Shown piece by piece: positions 12,494 to 62,355 of a DNA stretch of 64,000 nt. The stretch comes from Candidatus Methanoperedenaceae archaeon. Lineage in GTDB: Archaea; Halobacteriota; Methanosarcinia; Methanosarcinales; Methanoperedenaceae. A model generated the notes under the pieces. That model worked only from the letters and a program-made list of their open reading frames with translations. It was not told the DNA's origin and made no database searches. The stretch covers positions 1 to 64,000 of the forward strand of contig CAVWCX010000030.1 in assembly GCA_963753595.1 (NCBI GenBank). Reading direction: 5' to 3'. A program made the position numbers and the translations under genes. The first letter of the stretch is position 1. The number at the start of each line of letters is the position of its first letter.

Positions 12494-15124
12494 ATGGAGA
12501 AAATAAAATCTCGTATCATAAGCAGCGGTGTACATTCTCTCGATGAGGTAATACAGGGTTTCAGGCTTGGTGATAATGTAGTCTGGCAGGTTGACCACCT
12601 GGAGGACTATTCATTTTATGCGCAAAGATTTATCCACCAGGGCATCATGGAGGGTTATAAATGTGTTTATATCAGGTTTGCTCCTCACGAACCGATACTC
12701 AAACCAATGGAATATCTGGATATTATTCCGGTTGATCCCGGGAAGGGATTTGATTTTTTCAGCAGTGAAGTGCACAGGATAATTGAGAAATTTGGCAGAC
12801 AGGTTTTTTATGTTTTTGACAACCTGTCCTCCCTGGTAGTTGAATGGGCAACTGATGAACTTCTTGCCAACTTCTTTAAGGTCACCTGTCCCTACCTGTT
12901 CGAACTTGATACGATTGCATTTTTTGCGCTGACAAGGGGTAAGCATAGCCACTCTGCAGTTGCCAGGATACGGGATACGACCCAGATATTGATCGATGTC
13001 TATCGTGTGGACTCCAGGACATATTTGCATCCTTTAAAAGTCTACGACCGCTATTCACCACAGATGTTTTTACCGCATGTTTTTTCTGGTGGAAAGCTCG
13101 TGCCTTTGTTCAGCAGCGGAGAAGCAACCGCAGTTTCCAAAAGCCGCCAAAGGAAAGTCAGCGCCAGTATGATAGCCCCTTGGGACAGTGTATTTAGGAA
13201 ACTTACACAGTATTACGAAACAGGTAAGGAATCCCTATCTCCTGAAATAATTTCGCTAAAACAGGAACTTTCAAGGATGATAATAGGAAATCATGCACTG
13301 TTCAATAAGCTTGCTGATCATTATCTGACCCTTGATGACCTTTTAAATATCAGGGACAGGATGATCGGTTCAGGCCGGATAGGAGGAAAAGCTGTAGGCA
13401 TGTTGATCGCAAGATGTATTCTCATGAAGGATGGAAAACATCACAAATTCTCAAAGATCCTTGAGCCGCATGACTCATTTTATATCGGATCAGACGTATT
13501 TTTCACGTATCTTGTTAATAACGACCTTTTTCGCCTGAGGTTACAGATATCTGAGAGCTCAAGTATCACAAGAGAAATGTTCGAAGATGTGGAAAAGCGT
13601 TTTCTTGCAGGAAAATTTCCTGAAGAGATTAAAGAGGAATTTCGTAACCTGATAGACTATTTCGGACAGGCGCCCATAATCGTAAGGTCGAGCAGTTTGC
13701 AGGAGGATAGTTTTGGCAACGCATTTGCAGGAAAATACCGAAGCGAATTCTGTGCCAATCAGGGCAATCCGGAGGAAAGACTGGAAGAGTTTATGCGTGC
13801 CGTAAAGCTTGTATATGCAAGTGCATTAAATCCTGATGCTCTTTCATACAGAAAGGCACATGGCATTGAAGACACAGATGAAAAGATGGCTATCCTTGTG
13901 CAGCGGGTATCCGGCATACCTTATAAGCATTATTTCTTTCCGACCCTTGCCGGTGTGACATTTTCGAGAAATCTCTTTGCCTGGACCCCTCGCATAGACC
14001 CTGAAAGGGGAATGATACGGCTTGTATTCGGTCTTGGTACCCGTGCAGTGGACAGGGTAGGCAGGGATTACCCCAGAATGATAGCGGTCAGTCATCCGGA
14101 ACTCAGACCTGAGATCGGCATGGAAATCACAAAATATTCCCAGTGGGATGTCGATCTGCTTGACCTGAAGGACAATGAGTTCAAGACAATACCTTTTTCT
14201 GAGCTGGTCACTGATTGTGATTATCCCAACCTTAAATTATTTGTGTCAGTATATCAGGATGATCATCTATATGATCCTCTCACTGGAGTTATAGAATGTT
14301 TACCTGAAAATCTTTTTCTAACCTTCAACAATCTCATAAAAAAGACCGATCTTGTACAGAACATAGGTGAAATGTTGAAAATAATTGAAAAGAGTTACGA
14401 TCACCCCGTGGATATTGAATTTACAGCATTTGTGGATTCAAATAACAGGACAAAGATCAATTTGCTGCAATGTCGTACTATGAAGATCCCGGGAATTGCC
14501 GGTCCTGTTGACATACCTTCCAATATACCCCCAGAAAAGATATTATTCAGGTCCGGCAAGATCATTAATGGGGGAGTGATCACTGATATACGCTACATAG
14601 TCTACATAGATCCCAGAGTATATTCAAGGATCGATGAACTTCATATCAAGAAATCGCTGGGGCGAGTGATTGGCCGGATAAATGAACGATTTGGTCTTGA
14701 TGGGGTAAAGTTCATTTTAATGGGACCCGGGAGGTGGGGTAGCAAGAATATTGACCTTGGTGTAAATATTGGTTATGCTGATATAAATAAGACTGACGTT
14801 CTTGTTGAAATTGCGCGAAAGGGCGCCAGTCATACACCTGAAGTTTCCTATGGCACACACTTCTTCCAGGATCTGGTAGAAGGACATATCATCTACATGC
14901 CTGTTTATCCGGATATGCCCGGATCAGAGTTCAATGAGGAATTTTTCGATGTATCAAAAAATGTTCTTTCTGAACTTTTTCCTGATGACGGCAAGTTCAG
15001 CAGTTTTATCAAATTGATAGATATTCAATCTTCAACAGATGGCGGATATGCCGCAGTTGTTGCCGACCCCCAGAACCAGAGAGCTATATGCTTTCTAAGT
15101 CCGCTTCAATCAGTTGATGCATAA
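12494..15124 (+). CDS. PEP/pyruvate-binding (PPDK_N/PEP synthase ATP-grasp) protein with N-terminal degenerate KaiC/RecA-like domain
   Basis: N-term SSGVHSLDEVIQGFRLGDNVVW; IGGKAVG, IVRSSSLQEDS..FAGKY, GLGTRAV, GPGRWGS, SYGTHFFQDL. Confidence 0.85.
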   Translation: MEKIKSRIISSGVHSLDEVIQGFRLGDNVVWQVDHLEDYSFYAQRFIHQGIMEGYKCVYIRFAPHEPILKPMEYLDIIPVDPGKGFDFFSSEVHRIIEKFGRQVFYVFDNLSSLVVEWATDELLANFFKVTCPYLFELDTIAFFALTRGKHSHSAVARIRDTTQILIDVYRVDSRTYLHPLKVYDRYSPQMFLPHVFSGGKLVPLFSSGEATAVSKSRQRKVSASMIAPWDSVFRKLTQYYETGKESLSPEIISLKQELSRMIIGNHALFNKLADHYLTLDDLLNIRDRMIGSGRIGGKAVGMLIARCILMKDGKHHKFSKILEPHDSFYIGSDVFFTYLVNNDLFRLRLQISESSSITREMFEDVEKRFLAGKFPEEIKEEFRNLIDYFGQAPIIVRSSSLQEDSFGNAFAGKYRSEFCANQGNPEERLEEFMRAVKLVYASALNPDALSYRKAHGIEDTDEKMAILVQRVSGIPYKHYFFPTLAGVTFSRNLFAWTPRIDPERGMIRLVFGLGTRAVDRVGRDYPRMIAVSHPELRPEIGMEITKYSQWDVDLLDLKDNEFKTIPFSELVTDCDYPNLKLFVSVYQDDHLYDPLTGVIECLPENLFLTFNNLIKKTDLVQNIGEMLKIIEKSYDHPVDIEFTAFVDSNNRTKINLLQCRTMKIPGIAGPVDIPSNIPPEKILFRSGKIINGGVITDIRYIVYIDPRVYSRIDELHIKKSLGRVIGRINERFGLDGVKFILMGPGRWGSKNIDLGVNIGYADINKTDVLVEIARKGASHTPEVSYGTHFFQDLVEGHIIYMPVYPDMPGSEFNEEFFDVSKNVLSELFPDDGKFSSFIKLIDIQSSTDGGYAAVVADPQNQRAICFLSPLQSVDA

Positions 15125-52384: not shown

Positions 52385-53551
52385 ATGAAACAGCCAATAC
52401 TAACTCTAATTGCAGTATTTGCTCTCATTTTTATGATCGTTCCTGCTAACGCTGAACTTGAGGTCGTACTGGAACAGCTCTCACCCCAACCCGTTGAACC
52501 GGGGCAGGATCTGACGCTGTCAATAAGGCTAGAAAATGAAAATAGCGATATGGAAAATGTACGTCTTGAGATCGTTCCGGATTCGCCGATTACAATCAAG
52601 AATGAAAACAGGCGCATTATCGATGAAGGCAGGATTGTCCAATATGGCGCCATAACTGAAACCTACCTGTTACATGTCGATCCTCTCGCAGCTTCCGGCA
52701 CATACGAGATCGAATTCAGAACACGCTGGTCTGGCAATGGCATGTCCACTGAAACAAACAAAACCTTCAAGGTATTGGTCAGGGGAGCGCCTCAGCTTAT
52801 GATTTCCAAACTCACAGTAAATCCAGGAGGAATAAGCCCGAAGGATAAAATTGATCTAACGTTCCAGGTCTCAAATGAAGGAACCGGTATGGCACGGGAA
52901 ATTCAGGTAAGTGCCGACATGAGCGATCTGCCTTTTGTATCCCTGGATGCTGATACCAAGGTCATAAAAAGACTTGAACCTGGAGAAAACATTCAATTGA
53001 ACTACCCTATCCAGGTTAAAGACAAGACCGAAATTTCATCCTACTCTATCCCGATTAAAATGGATTATAAGGACGAGAACGGCAAAAACATAAGCTCGAA
53101 AAGTCTTGCAGGAGTCCGGGTTCTTGGTAAAGCAGAACTTGCGATATCAGATATAAAGATCGAACCACAAAATCCGGTAATTGGTGACCTTGTTACTGTT
53201 AATATGCGCATTGAAAATTCAGGAACAGGCGAGGCTAGATCTGTTAAGATAAAACTTGATGCCCCGTTTGAGGGAACAAAATCCGCATTCCTTGGCAAGA
53301 TCAAGCCCGATGACGATGCACCCGGGATTTTTACATTCTACGCAACAAAAGATGGTAATATTCCATTGTCCGCATCGATAGAATATGAAGATGATCTGGG
53401 CATGCGATCTGTCAAAGAATCACTGGATCTTCATGTATATAAACAGAATGAAAATAGCATGATGGCACCTATAGTTGTGGCTGTGCCTGTTATTGGTTCG
53501 ATCGCATATTATCTATCCCGCAGGAAGAAAAACCCGGGCAATACTAAATGA
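52385..53551 (+). CDS. COG1361 S-layer-domain protein
   Basis: Signal peptide, repeated Ig/CARDB-like domains, C-terminal TM plus RRKK. Confidence 0.85.
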   Translation: MKQPILTLIAVFALIFMIVPANAELEVVLEQLSPQPVEPGQDLTLSIRLENENSDMENVRLEIVPDSPITIKNENRRIIDEGRIVQYGAITETYLLHVDPLAASGTYEIEFRTRWSGNGMSTETNKTFKVLVRGAPQLMISKLTVNPGGISPKDKIDLTFQVSNEGTGMAREIQVSADMSDLPFVSLDADTKVIKRLEPGENIQLNYPIQVKDKTEISSYSIPIKMDYKDENGKNISSKSLAGVRVLGKAELAISDIKIEPQNPVIGDLVTVNMRIENSGTGEARSVKIKLDAPFEGTKSAFLGKIKPDDDAPGIFTFYATKDGNIPLSASIEYEDDLGMRSVKESLDLHVYKQNENSMMAPIVVAVPVIGSIAYYLSRRKKNPGNTK

Positions 53552-58773: not shown

Positions 58774-58980
58774 ACCGCAAAGGGCGAAAAGTACGCAAGG
58801 AACGATTTTCCTAACCTTTGCGCCCCTTGCGTTCTGGTATGAAAAAACAACGAACTAATACGAACTGAAACGAACTCAAGCTACCAGAGTTCGTTCGTGT
58901 TCGTTTATGTTCGTTTATGTTCGTTGTTTTTTTTCATTTTTATTTATGAATCGGGAGGATTCATGGCCGACTTTGCGGTG
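58774..58980. repeat. 9-mer periodic palindrome (accgcaaag-type x3 / ctttgcggt-type x3) interrupted by AACGAAC element
   Basis: Left arm 58774-58800; right arm 58816-58835 plus 58971-58979. Confidence 0.8.
58836..58970. mobile_element. AACGAAC hairpin MITE-like element copy A
   Basis: CT|ggtatgaaaaaac(aacgaac 10-mer)x3...(gttcgtt)x4 gttttttttcat, then small hairpin atgaatc/gattcat, ccga|CT. Confidence 0.8.
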
Positions 58981-59748: not shown

Positions 59749-59978
59749 TCACCCGGCCTTTTTATTCTCTATCTCAACCAATTTGTTTATTCGTTCTTCT
59801 ACAATATCCATCGAATCTTCAAACAATTTCCTGTTAATATCAATATTGAAGTATTTTTTAAGTTTCTCTTTCGGGGTAAGTGTAGTGCCTGCTGAAAGAT
59901 ATTCAATATAATTCTTGTTGAATTCTTCCGGATCATCCCTGTATTTTTTGAAAAGAGAAAGAGAAATTGCCTTTGAAT
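59749..59978 (-). pseudogene. C-terminal fragment of M3 oligoendopeptidase F
   Basis: SLSLFKKY..YIEYLSAGTTLTPKEKLKKYFNIDI; no upstream catalytic region. Confidence 0.65.
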
Positions 59979-60184
59979 TCGTTTCTTCAAAAACCCCCCT
60001 GCGTTTCAGTATCCAGCCTGCGCGCAAAAAAGGGAACCAACAGGTTAGTGGCTCGATGATGAAAATGTGCTCACCATCGAACAGGTATCAGTAAGTGCGC
60101 CAGTCCATTTCACGACCGGGGGGCATTATCAACGTGTTTTCCATTTGACCCTTACTAAGGGGTGCCAATTATACGTATGAATAG
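59979..60184 (-). pseudogene. Decayed SRPBCC-family gene, copy 1
   Basis: LFDGEHIFIIEP // LLVPFFARRLDTETQGGF with stops and a deletion. Confidence 0.6.
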
Positions 60185-60263
60185 ACTTTTAAAAACTAAA
60201 ATATCCATCACCGTACTTTTAAAAACTAAAATATCCATCATCGTACCTTTAAAAAACAAAATA
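60185..60263. repeat. 30-bp tandem repeat, ~2.6 copies
   Basis: acttttaaaaactaaaatatccatca(c/t)cgt at 60185 and 60215, degenerate third at 60245. Confidence 0.85.
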
Positions 60264-60444
60264 AACTGAAATAATTGTCAGGATATTTATATTGTTTTAA
60301 GTCTTGTAAGGAAAGTGAGGAAGCCATTACCATACCTTTCCTATACCACAAGAAATGTACAATGTTTCTGGCCTCCTCTTTCTTTCATACACTCTAAGTC
60401 CCTGCCAGTTCTCATTATGTGCATGCCCTTTATTTGGATTTCTT

Positions 60445-60612
60445 TTATTTTTCTCCTTCCGCCCGCAGTTTGAGAGCTTGATTCATAACTTCAAAACCCC
60501 TGCGTGTTTCAGTATCCAGACTGCGCGCAAAAAGGGGAACTAACAGGCCAGTAATGATTTCACGCTGTATAAATCGCACACCTCCAGCAACAAGCGGCTC
60601 GATGATGAGCAG
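60445..60612 (-). pseudogene. SRPBCC-family C-terminal fragment, copy 2
   Basis: LIIEPLVAGGVRFIQREIITGLLVPLFARSLDTETRRGFEVMNQALKLRAEGEK*. Confidence 0.7.
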
Positions 60613-60630
60613 CTAAAATTGCAGCATCCC

Positions 60631-60770
60631 ATGGATGGATATAACTGTACGGAGATTGTTCTCATGGCGATGCAGGAAGCCGGATATCCCCACAGCCTTT
60701 GGAACAGGGATCGGGAGACGGGACTGCGGTGCCGTAACCGGAGGGATAATTGCAATTATAGTTCTCCGCA
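60631..60770 (+). pseudogene. C_GCAxxG_C_C family fragment
   Basis: MDGYNCTEIVLMAM then frameshift to TAFGTGIGRRDCGAVTGGIIAI. Confidence 0.65.
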
Positions 60771-60855
60771 TAACATCATTTTGGGATAGGGTGATCATTA
60801 ATCCAAATTTTATTACTTTCACAATGCCCTATCTTAGCGTATAAAACCATGCAAA

Positions 60856-61409
60856 CGAATTGGAACGCGGATGACGCGGATTGCGCGGATGCCCGCGGAT
60901 CGAATTATCCTTATTCCAATAGAAGGAGATACAAAATGTTGTATTCAGAAATGACAGAAAAAATCATCAATTCGTTTTACAAAGTTTATAATGTATTGGG
61001 CTATGGCTTTCTGGAAAAAGTTTATGAAAATGCCCTGGTAATTGAATTAAAAAGTGCGGGTTTCAAGGTCTTACAGCAGCAAAATATCAAAGTTTTCTAT
61101 AAAAATCAGGTAGTTGGAGATTATTTCGCAGATATTATTGTGAATGACCTGATAATTTTAGAAATAAAAGCGTCTGAGGGTTTAAGGGATGAAAATAAGG
61201 CTCAGTTGATCAATTATCTAAAAGCTACCAATAAAACAAGTCGGGCTTTTGTTTAATTTTGGTAAAAAACCAGATTTCAATAGAGCAATCTTCTCGAATG
61301 ATAGAAAGGAAATATCATATACAGAAGCCTCAAATCCGTGTGAATCCGCGCAATCCGCGTCATCCGCGTTCTATTCGTCTGGATGAATACTATTCTTTAA
61401 ATCCCGGAC
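60856..61409 (+). mobile_element. GxxExxY cassette bounded by periodic inverted repeats and 11-bp flanking direct repeat
   Basis: IRs 60855-60900 / 61334-61378 (28 bp perfect); aaccatgcaaa at 60845-60855 and 61410-61420. Confidence 0.7.
60936..61386 (+). CDS. GxxExxY protein (PD-(D/E)XK-like fold); 1-nt frameshift at A4 61233-61236
   Basis: AGGAG RBS; LGYGFLEKVYENAL, ADIIV..ILEIKA, AQLINYLKAT; shifted frame continues VGLLFNFGKKP. Confidence 0.88.
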
Positions 61410-61514
61410 AACCATGCAAATAACTCAACCCATCCTGCTGTAACAAACACCGATGCTGACTTCTGCGCAGTATTTTGACGGATATTCCAGCCTTTGTCTG
61501 GACAGGCAATTTCT

Positions 61515-61662
61515 AAACAACGAACTAAAACGAACTGCAACGAACTCAAAGCAATCAGAGTTCGTATTGAGTTCGTCGGAGTTCGGTGTTAATTTTTTTC
61601 ATACCAGCTCACGGAGGAAATAGAGCAACGTTGACTCTGTGATTTCTGAGGCATCTGTAGTT
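61515..61662. repeat. AACGAAC element copy C (61515-61605) abutting a cacagag-type 9-mer palindrome (61608-61662)
   Basis: aacaacgaactaaaacgaactgcaacgaactc...gagttcg x3...ttttttcataccAG ctcacggag gaaatagag...ctctgtgat ttctgaggc atctgtagtt. Confidence 0.75.
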
Positions 61663-61702: not shown

Positions 61703-62355
61703 TCAATGCTTGTGGTCATCACCTTTCAAGATCAGAACACCAAGGGCCACCAGCCAGATACTCCAGAGAATGTAGCCAATAAAGTTGGCGGTATCAGTGC
61801 CGGGGACACCCAGCGGGATAAGGAGACCAAGCATTATGAGGAGCGCCGAGATGATCCCGAGCCATGAAAACCAGAGGCGTCCGATGTTTTTACCCAGGGA
61901 TTGGATGATAAGAATAGTCCAAACTCCTGTGAAGAGATAACCGAATGTCTCACCTATGATCGTCCCCAGGATCTTATTGAGCAACTGGAATGTTGCCACA
62001 TCACCATTTTGCGCAAGACCTGGCACGATCAATATCCATCGTGATAAGCCAATGACCTGCACAACTGCGGCCAATACACCCATCCACACCGCCATGCGGC
62101 TGCTCCCCAGGCGGCCAAGGATGACAGCAATGGGGCTAACAAACCAGCGCCAATCGCAAGGATGCTAAACCAGAAAATTATCGCGGTTTGGTTTGCCATG
62201 AATTGCCGAAGGATCTCATTTGCCGGCTCTTGCAAGATATCGGGATAATTAAAAACCGATCCTAATCCAATAAACGCTATGTTTGCCAGAACCGCACCAA
62301 GTACGAGCAATGCCGCCGCCAGTTTTCTGTAGGACCGCTCTGAAAATTCGTTCAT
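61703..62355 (-). CDS. DUF4386-like membrane protein; 1-nt frameshift at 62132-62135
   Basis: FNYPDILQEP..(shift)..QVIGLSRW..IGETFGYLFTGVW. Confidence 0.75.

What the first reader, a model, noticed from the sequence alone, without database searches (positions are those of the whole stretch)
60845..61420. GxxExxY nuclease-like gene packaged as a hairpin-bounded cassette with an 11-bp target-site-like duplication
Seen: the ORF is enclosed by inverted repeats of tandem 9-mers. The left arm is acgaat-tgg-aacgcggat-gacgcggat-tgcgcggat-gcccgcggat (60855-60900) and the right arm its near-perfect complement (61334-61378), with 28 bp perfect. A 31-nt tail with a small hairpin follows, and aaccatgcaaa is directly repeated on both outer sides (60845-55, 61410-20). 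No transposase or integrase is inside. Known: GxxExxY proteins are ~130-aa PD-(D/E)XK-like proteins of unassigned function. Inference: a minimal mobile or selfish unit whose only protein may cut, or bind, the periodic palindromes (analogous to RAYT/REP), or whose RNA/ssDNA folds into one long stem that loops out the gene.
Basis: partly seen in the sequence, partly recalled or inferred. Interest (0 to 1): 0.82.

Follow-up and report, generated by a model that had tools for sequence, protein, structure and literature searches.

The report
Repeat-armed nuclease cassette riding archaeal transposons
A broken copy of a small nuclease gene sits between two mirror-image repeat arrays; this gene-plus-repeat unit is widespread, comes in matched gene/repeat types and is carried about by other jumping genes, while the supposed 11-base insertion scar is not an insertion scar.

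Summary
The arms, ORF, frameshift and 11-mer pair are real. The 11-mers are not a target-site duplication. The right copy is conserved internal flank (20 of 30 related right ends), the left matches in 1 of 12, and 1 of 54 cassettes has such a repeat.

The unit is a GxxExxY (PD-(D/E)XK) gene between inverted 9-nt-periodic arrays. In this Methanoperedens genus six protein clades each carry their own arm type (74 of 86 loci), and this arm type recurs beside the same clade in bacteria of many phyla. Arms also form many gene-less hairpins.

Shown movement here is by other transposases. Cassettes lie in shells of a Mutator-like IS (8-bp duplications; empty site for a second copy in this genome), hairpins in IS4-like and other MITEs, and a group II intron targets the arms. 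The window copy is an inherited remnant lacking shell ends.

That the nuclease acts on its own arms is inferred (about 45%). I found no paper linking gene and arms. This scan noted the unit before on other DNA.

The parts
60770..60812 (+). Left flank shared with cassettes that lie inside Mutator-like IS shells; the shell's terminal repeat is missing here
   Evidence: Homology to G006, G034, G015 and G033 copies starts at 60770; no TIR match in the window
60813..60822 (+). Conserved upstream motif TTACTTTCAC, also seen upstream of F-clade cassettes; role unknown
60840..60846 (+). TATA-like box at fixed distance from the left arm (probable archaeal promoter; inference)
   Evidence: Pattern matched in 10 of 12 distinct left ends; position
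60845..60855 (+). Left 11-mer: a local variant of the variable stretch between TATA box and arm (usual form AAAGTGCAAA); not a target-site duplication
   Evidence: 1 of 12 left ends has it; alignment of ends
60855..60900 (+). Left arm: four CRCGGAT units at 9-nt period behind GAAC (arm type E)
60936..61386 (+). GxxExxY / PDDEXK_3 nuclease gene, clade E; frameshifted near 61233 in this assembly (first frame stops at 61256; the intact relative is 149 aa and reads through the right arm)
   Evidence: related contigs in runs X1 and X2 lack the extra base
61334..61378 (+). Right arm, inverted copy of the left arm; in G005 a group II intron is inserted at 61335/61336
61372..61389 (+). Small 5-bp hairpin overlapping the stop codon, conserved in related right ends
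61410..61420 (+). Right 11-mer: conserved internal flank of the cassette, present at unrelated sites
   Evidence: 20 of 30 distinct right ends carry a version with at most 3 mismatches
61421..61489 (+). Further right flank shared with copies at other sites and variably shortened
   Evidence: (L037 match to 61489)
61516..61590 (.). Neighbouring gene-less hairpin of a different arm type (F, ACGAACT at 10-nt period)

Best explanation
What it is (shown, about 0.85): a decayed, inherited copy of a cassette made of a GxxExxY PD-(D/E)XK nuclease gene between two inverted arrays of a clade-specific 7-mer at about one helical turn's spacing. In Methanoperedens the cassette and its gene-less hairpin derivatives make their long-range jumps as passengers of non-autonomous IS shells, moved in trans by Mutator-like, IS4-like and other transposases. 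The window copy has lost both shell ends. The 11-mers are an internal flank plus a chance or converted look-alike. How the gene and arms work (inferred, about 0.45): the arms are arrays of recognition sites for the cassette's own nuclease. It binds them on DNA (duplex or extruded cruciform) and nicks or cuts nearby; repair then copies, swaps or deletes cassettes and leaves gene-less hairpins. This is a selfish nuclease-repeat partnership like RAYT/REPIN with a different enzyme.
For: Cognate arms at 74 of 86 genus loci across six clades. Arm types cluster on the protein tree (11 changes vs shuffled mean 26.1, 0 of 200 as low). The same E arm flanks the same clade in bacteria of many phyla at roughly 50-70% protein identity. 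The arm core is near-invariant while linkers vary, and there is no strand bias in wobble pairs. Catalytic-type residues D66, E76, K78, Q90, Y94 are invariant in 50 sequences. The fold is nearest Cas4 SSO0001 (E 1.2e-4) and Hjc resolvases. All 7 non-autonomous TIR pairs of a 2.2-kb Mutator-like IS hold GxxExxY DNA of three clades, 4 with exact 8-bp duplications. The ruvC-flavodoxin spacer is 151-186 nt in 9 genomes, 931 with an E cassette here and 999 with an F cassette in G036. Hairpins lie in 5 of 5 IS4-like MITEs here and in 13 of 16 elsewhere. A Flavobacterium operon junction is empty in 3 genomes and holds cassettes of two different clades in 2.
Against: No biochemical evidence. Co-inheritance of gene and arms as one piece of DNA could give the tree pattern without recognition. 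Arms occur in 49 of 49 genomes (E), 48 (F) and 46 (C), including genomes without the cognate gene. The excess of arms in genomes with the cognate gene weakens once the cassettes' own arms are subtracted (E p 0.014-0.02, C 0.06-0.23, F 0.10-0.13; kin not independent). This genome has about 100 arm loci but no unbroken GxxExxY gene in the assembly. Every precisely bounded jump I found is explained by an IS transposase. An automated test found an intact shell at only 4 of 32 hairpins in this genome (8 of 32). The shell census is partly biased because many loci were fetched around GxxExxY genes.
Confidence: 0.55

Rival explanations
1. Passive cargo. The arms are old ends of the cassette that persist and multiply only because IS-derived MITEs and introns carry or target them; the nuclease does something unrelated (for example general junction or flap processing) and does not read the arms.
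For: All sharply bounded moves involve IS ends. Arms are common without the gene. The density link is weak after correction.
Against: It does not explain why the same arm core stays beside the same clade across phyla and domains, or why bacterial cassettes begin and end close to the arms without evident IS ends (not searched systematically).
Confidence: 0.2
2. Regulatory containment. The arms are operator sites or an RNA stem that keeps a potentially toxic nuclease switched off or processes its transcript (IVS-like), and mobility is incidental.
For: A conserved TATA-like box would start transcription near the left arm (inference). The ORF reads through the right arm into a small hairpin. The two arms of one cassette are more alike than arms of different cassettes (0.81 vs 0.69, 0 of 2000 permutations; 44 pairs kept after an identity filter).
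Against: No sense-strand preference for G-U pairs (55 vs 59, p 0.78). Dozens of gene-less hairpins per genome need another explanation. No Rfam match to the cassette.
Confidence: 0.17
3. One reading: an autonomous minimal element running from 60856 to 61409 that made an 11-bp target-site duplication.
For: An exact 11-bp direct repeat is present. Repeats of 8 bp or more are somewhat more frequent than in controls (9 of 54 vs 8.9%).
Against: Homology to other copies extends past both 11-mers. The right 11-mer is conserved at unrelated sites. Only the window itself has a repeat of 10 bp or more (1 of 54; control 0.6%). The repeat lies 7 and 38 nt from the GAAC/GTTC arm anchors, so it is asymmetric.
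Confidence: 0.04

Closest known systems
RAYT / REP / REPIN systems and TIRYT 'TIRtrons' (PMC3733652, abstract and passages read; PMC5581495, search listing only)
   Same: A nuclease gene flanked by inverted repeats that also form a genome-wide gene-less repeat family; several gene/repeat types can coexist in one genome.
   Different: The enzyme is PD-(D/E)XK, not an HUH tyrosine transposase. The arms are periodic 9-10-nt arrays without GTAG/CGTC tags. The genes are patchy, often multi-copy and decayed. The host is an archaeon.
Passenger-carrying non-autonomous IS derivatives (MITEs, mobile insertion cassettes; the term MIC is recalled and also used in earlier scan notes)
   Same: IS-derived terminal repeats, 8-bp duplication, no own transposase, empty site.
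   Different: The passenger is itself a structured gene-plus-arm unit that exists without IS ends in bacteria and has entered shells of several unrelated IS families. The window copy has no shell ends left.
Paired tandem-repeat 'global regulator binding sites' of Geobacter metallireducens (PMC2700814, passages and supplement legends read) and octa-/nonanucleotide repeats of G. bemidjiensis (PMC2996986, passages and Table S6 hits read)
   Same: Tandem 7-9-mers in inverted pairs, dispersed, with IS elements inserted at fixed distance. The G. bemidjiensis consensus TCTTTGCG and CCTCTGTG units resemble arm types A and B here.
   Different: Read there as regulator sites or left unexplained. GxxExxY is not named in the 12 of 15 supplementary files searched. 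The E-type motif was not found in them.
Cas4 (SSO0001, 4ic1) and archaeal Hjc resolvases
   Same: PD-(D/E)XK fold; D..ExK plus QxxxY residues.
   Different: About 18% identity; no CRISPR context. A shared fold does not give the substrate.
Group IIE/IIF introns such as Ge.ur.I1-1 (PMC3753933, passages read)
   Same: Target choice by a short EBS1-IBS1 pairing, with several IBS1 variants in the 5' exon. The Methanoperedens intron's EBS1 candidate complements the arm unit and changes with the arm type.
   Different: This intron is a parasite of the arms, not part of the window copy. Its class was not determined.

Membership tests
GxxExxY / PDDEXK_3 (TIGR04256, PF13366) | Profile match above curated cut-off | tested here: met
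   112.5 bits vs cut-off 35; 116.9 vs 22
GxxExxY / PDDEXK_3 (TIGR04256, PF13366) | Intact full-length gene | tested here: not met
   Frameshift near 61233 in this assembly; related contigs lack it
RAYT/REPIN | HUH (Y1) tyrosine transposase | tested here: not met
   Pfam, NCBIfam and fold give PD-(D/E)XK
RAYT/REPIN | Gene flanked by cognate inverted repeats that also occur gene-less across the genome | tested here: met
RAYT/REPIN | Repeat population depends on the cognate gene | tested here: inconclusive
   Diagonal excess for E, C, F but weak after correction; arms present without the gene
RAYT/REPIN | GTAG or CGTC terminal tag (PMC3733652 abstract) | tested here: not met
   Arms begin GAAC and end GTTC
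RAYT/REPIN | Enzyme binds and cleaves the repeats | not testable with these tools
   needs biochemistry
Non-autonomous IS derivative with passenger gene (MITE/MIC), relatives and second copy on C2 | Terminal repeats shared with an autonomous IS | tested here: met
   Shell ends align to both ends of a 2.2-kb IS with a PF00872 transposase; the C2 copy's left end is 77% like the shell end over 111 nt, its right end resembles the other TIR only loosely
Non-autonomous IS derivative with passenger gene (MITE/MIC), relatives and second copy on C2 | Target-site duplication and empty site | tested here: met
   Exact 8-bp repeats in 4 of 7 shells and around the C2 copy; short spacer in 9 genomes (none shows the 8-mer exactly, G045 has 7 of 8)
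Non-autonomous IS derivative with passenger gene (MITE/MIC), the window copy | Terminal repeats and duplication at its own ends | tested here: not met
   No TIR near the window copy
ORF-bearing intervening sequences of 23S rRNA (recalled; lead from e1-739520) | Located in an rRNA gene and excised at RNA level | tested here: not met
   The window copy lies among protein-gene fragments with no rRNA match; RNA excision itself could not be tested (laid contigs only)
Integron cassette (attC/IntI) | attC sites and an integron integrase | not tested
   no search made
Catalogued anti-phage systems (PADLOC 2.0.0) | Match to a defence-protein model | tested here: not met
   0 families for 3 of 3 proteins

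The most novel reading that the evidence does not exclude
GxxExxY genes and their periodic arms form an undescribed, cross-domain class of selfish system. Each clade of a small PD-(D/E)XK nuclease recognises its own helically phased repeat array and propagates cassettes and gene-less hairpins without a transposase. The hairpin population is stable enough that several IS families carry it and a group II intron lineage has tuned its targeting loop to it.
Probability: 0.33. Interest if true: 0.85.

Novelty: new variant of a known kind. Interest (0 to 1): 0.6.

Why it matters
PF13366 is a large family listed as 'Unknown' in the PD-(D/E)XK survey (PMC3424549, table row read), with at least 7994 relatives among 8000 candidates scored. 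Six matched protein/arm pairs in one genus give a ready-made specificity matrix, so one cross-binding or cleavage experiment could assign a substrate. It would also explain repeat families catalogued in Geobacter without a cause. In Methanoperedens the arms mark about 100 loci in one genome and are used by MITEs and an intron, so they shape its variable regions. The window copy itself is a remnant, and its headline feature (the 11-bp duplication) is not what it seemed.

Tried and rejected
11-bp duplication as insertion scar: rejected. My first duplication test (68 loci, none at 11 bp or more) missed the window's own repeat because the alignment swallowed it; it was redone anchored on the arm ends.

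Empty site for the window copy itself: not found. G005 and run X1 carry cassette sequence at the same locus and G045 is rearranged there. The G006 cassette site beside pyrG is occupied by other DNA in this genome, so it is no clean empty site. Of six gene-less hairpin loci searched in 5 relatives, one gave a clean empty site, two revealed further MITEs, one had no match, one lacked joined flanks and one was not analysed further. Four more loci fetched were not searched.

Hairpin-structure recognition by the intron: dropped after the EBS1 candidate was seen to pair with the arm unit.

mRNA-specific stem: no wobble bias.

Database searches with no useful hit: Rfam (one chance-level hit), PDB by sequence (none significant), PADLOC, phages (no match); plasmids gave only 8 records.

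RNA runs: only short or small-share contig matches, so no statement on expression. A homodimer prediction was not obtained.

The tree used 50 rows: a random third of the bacterial loci, minus rows with stops or under 95 aa. The bootstrap had not settled, and my loose E pattern also labels C arms ('EC').

Literature searches: GxxExxY (3 papers hold the term, 2 listed; passage read in one, incidental); PDDEXK_3/PF13366/TIGR04256 (2 papers); tandem inverted repeats; Methanoperedens with MITE/IS; intron with REP (0); Geobacter repeats; group IIC/attC; RAYT/REPIN. None of the listings or passages I saw links the gene to the arms. Subscription papers, bioRxiv supplements and 3 of 15 files of PMC2996986 were not searchable.

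Full report
OBSERVATION. The described features are present: inverted arms at 60863-60900 and 61334-61371 (38 nt, 92%) with 28 perfect pairs, the 11-mer at 60845 and 61410, and a GxxExxY ORF at 60936 (TIGR04256 1.4e-32, PF13366 8.4e-34). The ORF is frameshifted near 61233; the second frame continues through the right arm to a stop at 61384-61386. Related contigs in runs X1 and X2 lack the extra base, so the break is recent or an assembly error. The host is a Methanoperedens by the titles of matching relatives.

THE 11-MER IS NOT A TARGET-SITE DUPLICATION. A second, decayed copy on contig C2 shares sequence with the window beyond both 11-mers and has two different variants there. Among 30 distinct right ends, 20 carry a version within 3 mismatches. 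Among 12 distinct left ends only the window has AACCATGCAAA; the usual form is AAAGTGCAAA. Of 54 cassettes with both arm anchors, only the window has a flanking direct repeat of 10 bp or more (control 0.6%); at 8 bp it is 9 of 54 vs 8.9%. The match is best read as drift or short-patch conversion in a variable stretch between a conserved TATA-like box (10 of 12 left ends) and the arm (inference).

GENE AND ARMS TRAVEL TOGETHER. PF13366 is found in 41 of 49 genomes of the genus. Six protein clades each have their own arm type: A CGCAAAG, B CACAGAG, C CGCAGAT (10-nt period), D CAGGAT, E CRCGGAT, F ACGAACT. 74 of 86 classified loci carry the cognate arm within 330 nt (100 loci examined, 8 without a hit, 3 in an armless clade X, and 4 rows, one being a clade-less hit, unassigned or below the identity bar). 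For clade E, 54 of 74 loci from many bacterial phyla plus G006 have inverted flanks scoring 30 or more, against 1 of 247 shifted controls (79 fetched, 5 at contig edges). In 44 E cassettes the C-R-C-n-G-A-T core is near-invariant, linkers vary, the two arms of a cassette co-vary (0.81 vs 0.69), and G-T wobbles show no strand preference (55 vs 59). This fits DNA-level recognition better than an mRNA stem (inference). The intact G006 protein folds confidently over residues 1-120 (mean pLDDT 85) as a PD-(D/E)XK nuclease nearest Cas4 SSO0001 and Hjc (best Z 8.7, a modest margin), with invariant D66, E76, K78, Q90 and Y94.

GENE-LESS HAIRPINS. This genome has 180 arm matches at 100 loci, 27 with two or more types, and no unbroken GxxExxY gene. 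E, F and C arms occur in 49, 48 and 46 of 49 genomes. Density is higher where the cognate gene is present (E 11.6 vs 6.9 per Mb, p 0.007; C 3.6 vs 1.5, p 0.0009; F 11.9 vs 4.9, p 0.057; 12 mismatched pairs all p at least 0.16). Subtracting the cassettes' own arms leaves only E below 0.05, and kin are not independent.

WHAT MOVES THEM HERE. (a) The ruvC-flavodoxin spacer is 151-186 nt in 9 genomes, 288 nt with an A hairpin in G021, 931 nt with the E copy in this genome and 999 nt with an F cassette in G036. The insert here is 736 bp between two ATATTTGT copies, much longer than arm to arm. (b) Its left end is a degenerate terminal repeat of a 2.2-kb IS encoding a 504-aa Mutator-family transposase. 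All 7 non-autonomous pairs of these ends that I could read hold GxxExxY DNA (4 E, 2 F, 1 B), 4 with exact 8-bp duplications (partly ascertained around GxxExxY genes; the 2 full IS copies showed no exact duplication). This IS was not found in the window's genome. (c) 11 full IS4-like elements (DDE_Tnp_1) and 5 MITEs share ends in this genome. All 5 MITEs carry an E hairpin, 4 with exact 10-bp duplications, as do 13 of 16 such MITEs from other genomes (these may stem from few captures). (d) Three more short shells carry D or B hairpins, one with a clean empty site in 3 relatives. An automated scan, however, finds an intact shell at only 4 of 32 hairpins, so most are unexplained or eroded. (e) In Flavobacterium one operon junction is empty in G061, G104 and G111 and holds an E cassette in G050 and another clade's cassette in G075, with arms close to the gene borders; divergence is too high to read junctions.

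THE WINDOW COPY. Homology to shell-borne cassettes runs from 60770 to about 61489 with no terminal repeat. It abuts a gene fragment (weak C_GCAxxG_C_C hit, E 0.009). G005 shares the right arm and the next 1.2 kb at 91% and run X1 covers the same locus, so it is an inherited remnant.

A PARASITE OF THE ARMS. A group II intron (TIGR04416) has 45 copies in 12 of 49 genomes. Of 30 fetched (29 distinct sites), 21 end exactly in an arm unit by a strict pattern (chance 18 of 199,897 positions), and 28 by eye, at the same register in E, B and A arms. In G005 it splits the right arm of the orthologous copy. Its EBS1 candidate complements the unit and changes in the A-targeting copy, as expected from EBS1-IBS1 targeting (PMC3753933, passages). 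This shows the arms are a long-lived target, not that they fold.

MECHANISM. Shown: cassette anatomy, clade/arm coupling, IS-mediated carriage, presence/absence. Inferred: phased arms are sites for the cognate nuclease, whose cuts seed recombination, deletion and hairpin formation (about 0.45). Rivals are passive cargo (0.2), regulatory containment (0.17) and an autonomous element with an 11-bp duplication (0.04).

COMPARISON AND NOVELTY. It works like RAYT/REPIN but fails membership (no HUH enzyme, no GTAG/CGTC tag). Relatives qualify as passenger-carrying IS derivatives; the window copy no longer does. Similar paired repeats were catalogued in Geobacter as regulator sites or unknown (PMC2700814, PMC2996986). 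My searches found no paper tying GxxExxY genes to them. The scan has reported the gene-plus-arm unit, an IS-carried form and arm-targeting introns in other genomes; those notes are leads, not support. New here: the six-clade matrix in one archaeal genus, same-site replacement by different clades, carriage in several IS shells, and the disproof of the 11-mer. Interest 0.6.

Noticed in passing
window 61516-61590 and 58828-58929: Two gene-less hairpins of arm type F (ACGAACT, 10-nt period), the commonest type in this genome.
   Followed up: partly
window 59749-60770: Graveyard of gene fragments: oligoendopeptidase F tail, a twice-present piece at 60003 and 60506, 30-nt tandem repeats at 60185-60263, and a weak C_GCAxxG_C_C fragment. 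G045 has an F-clade GxxExxY cassette and an inverted E end in the same region.
   Followed up: partly
G000 C1:5159-5361, C20:23073-23275, C24:80468-80670, C7:130832-131029, C33:4842-5039: Five IS4-like MITEs with about 10-bp duplications, each carrying an E hairpin; 11 full IS copies supply the transposase.
   Followed up: yes
L372:216-2435, L373:274-2492: A 2.2-kb Mutator-like IS of Methanoperedens (504-aa transposase, only weak Pfam hits) whose ends frame GxxExxY cassettes.
   Followed up: yes
L150-L179: Group II intron family with ORF-less (about 715 nt) and RT-bearing forms that inserts at a fixed register in the arms; one tandem insertion at L163.
   Followed up: partly
L269 (C2, about 13350-13690), L261 (C33, about 52470-52650), L264 (C7, about 79555-79705): Three further short elements of about 340, 178 and 149 bp with their own terminal repeats, carrying D, D and B hairpins; parent IS families not identified.
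   Followed up: partly
L311 (G021) and G000 C24, about 84520-84600: 'Outward' A-type hairpins in which a right arm is followed by a left arm, as a circle or tandem junction would look.
   Followed up: no
L259 (ruvB-ruvA spacer): The 10-15-nt ruvB-ruvA spacer holds different inserts in G000 (400 nt, with a D hairpin), G005 (665 nt) and G006 (1223 nt): an insertion hot spot.
   Followed up: no
L324 (G045 C19): A Mutator-like end with a truncated E left flank abuts an ORF that from recall resembles a Tc-type toxin subunit; not tested.
   Followed up: no
L023, L422, L447: A seventh GxxExxY clade (X) with none of the six arm types nearby.
   Followed up: no
window 61703-62355: DUF4386 gene split by a frameshift; related contigs in three runs have an extra base at 62131.
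   Followed up: no
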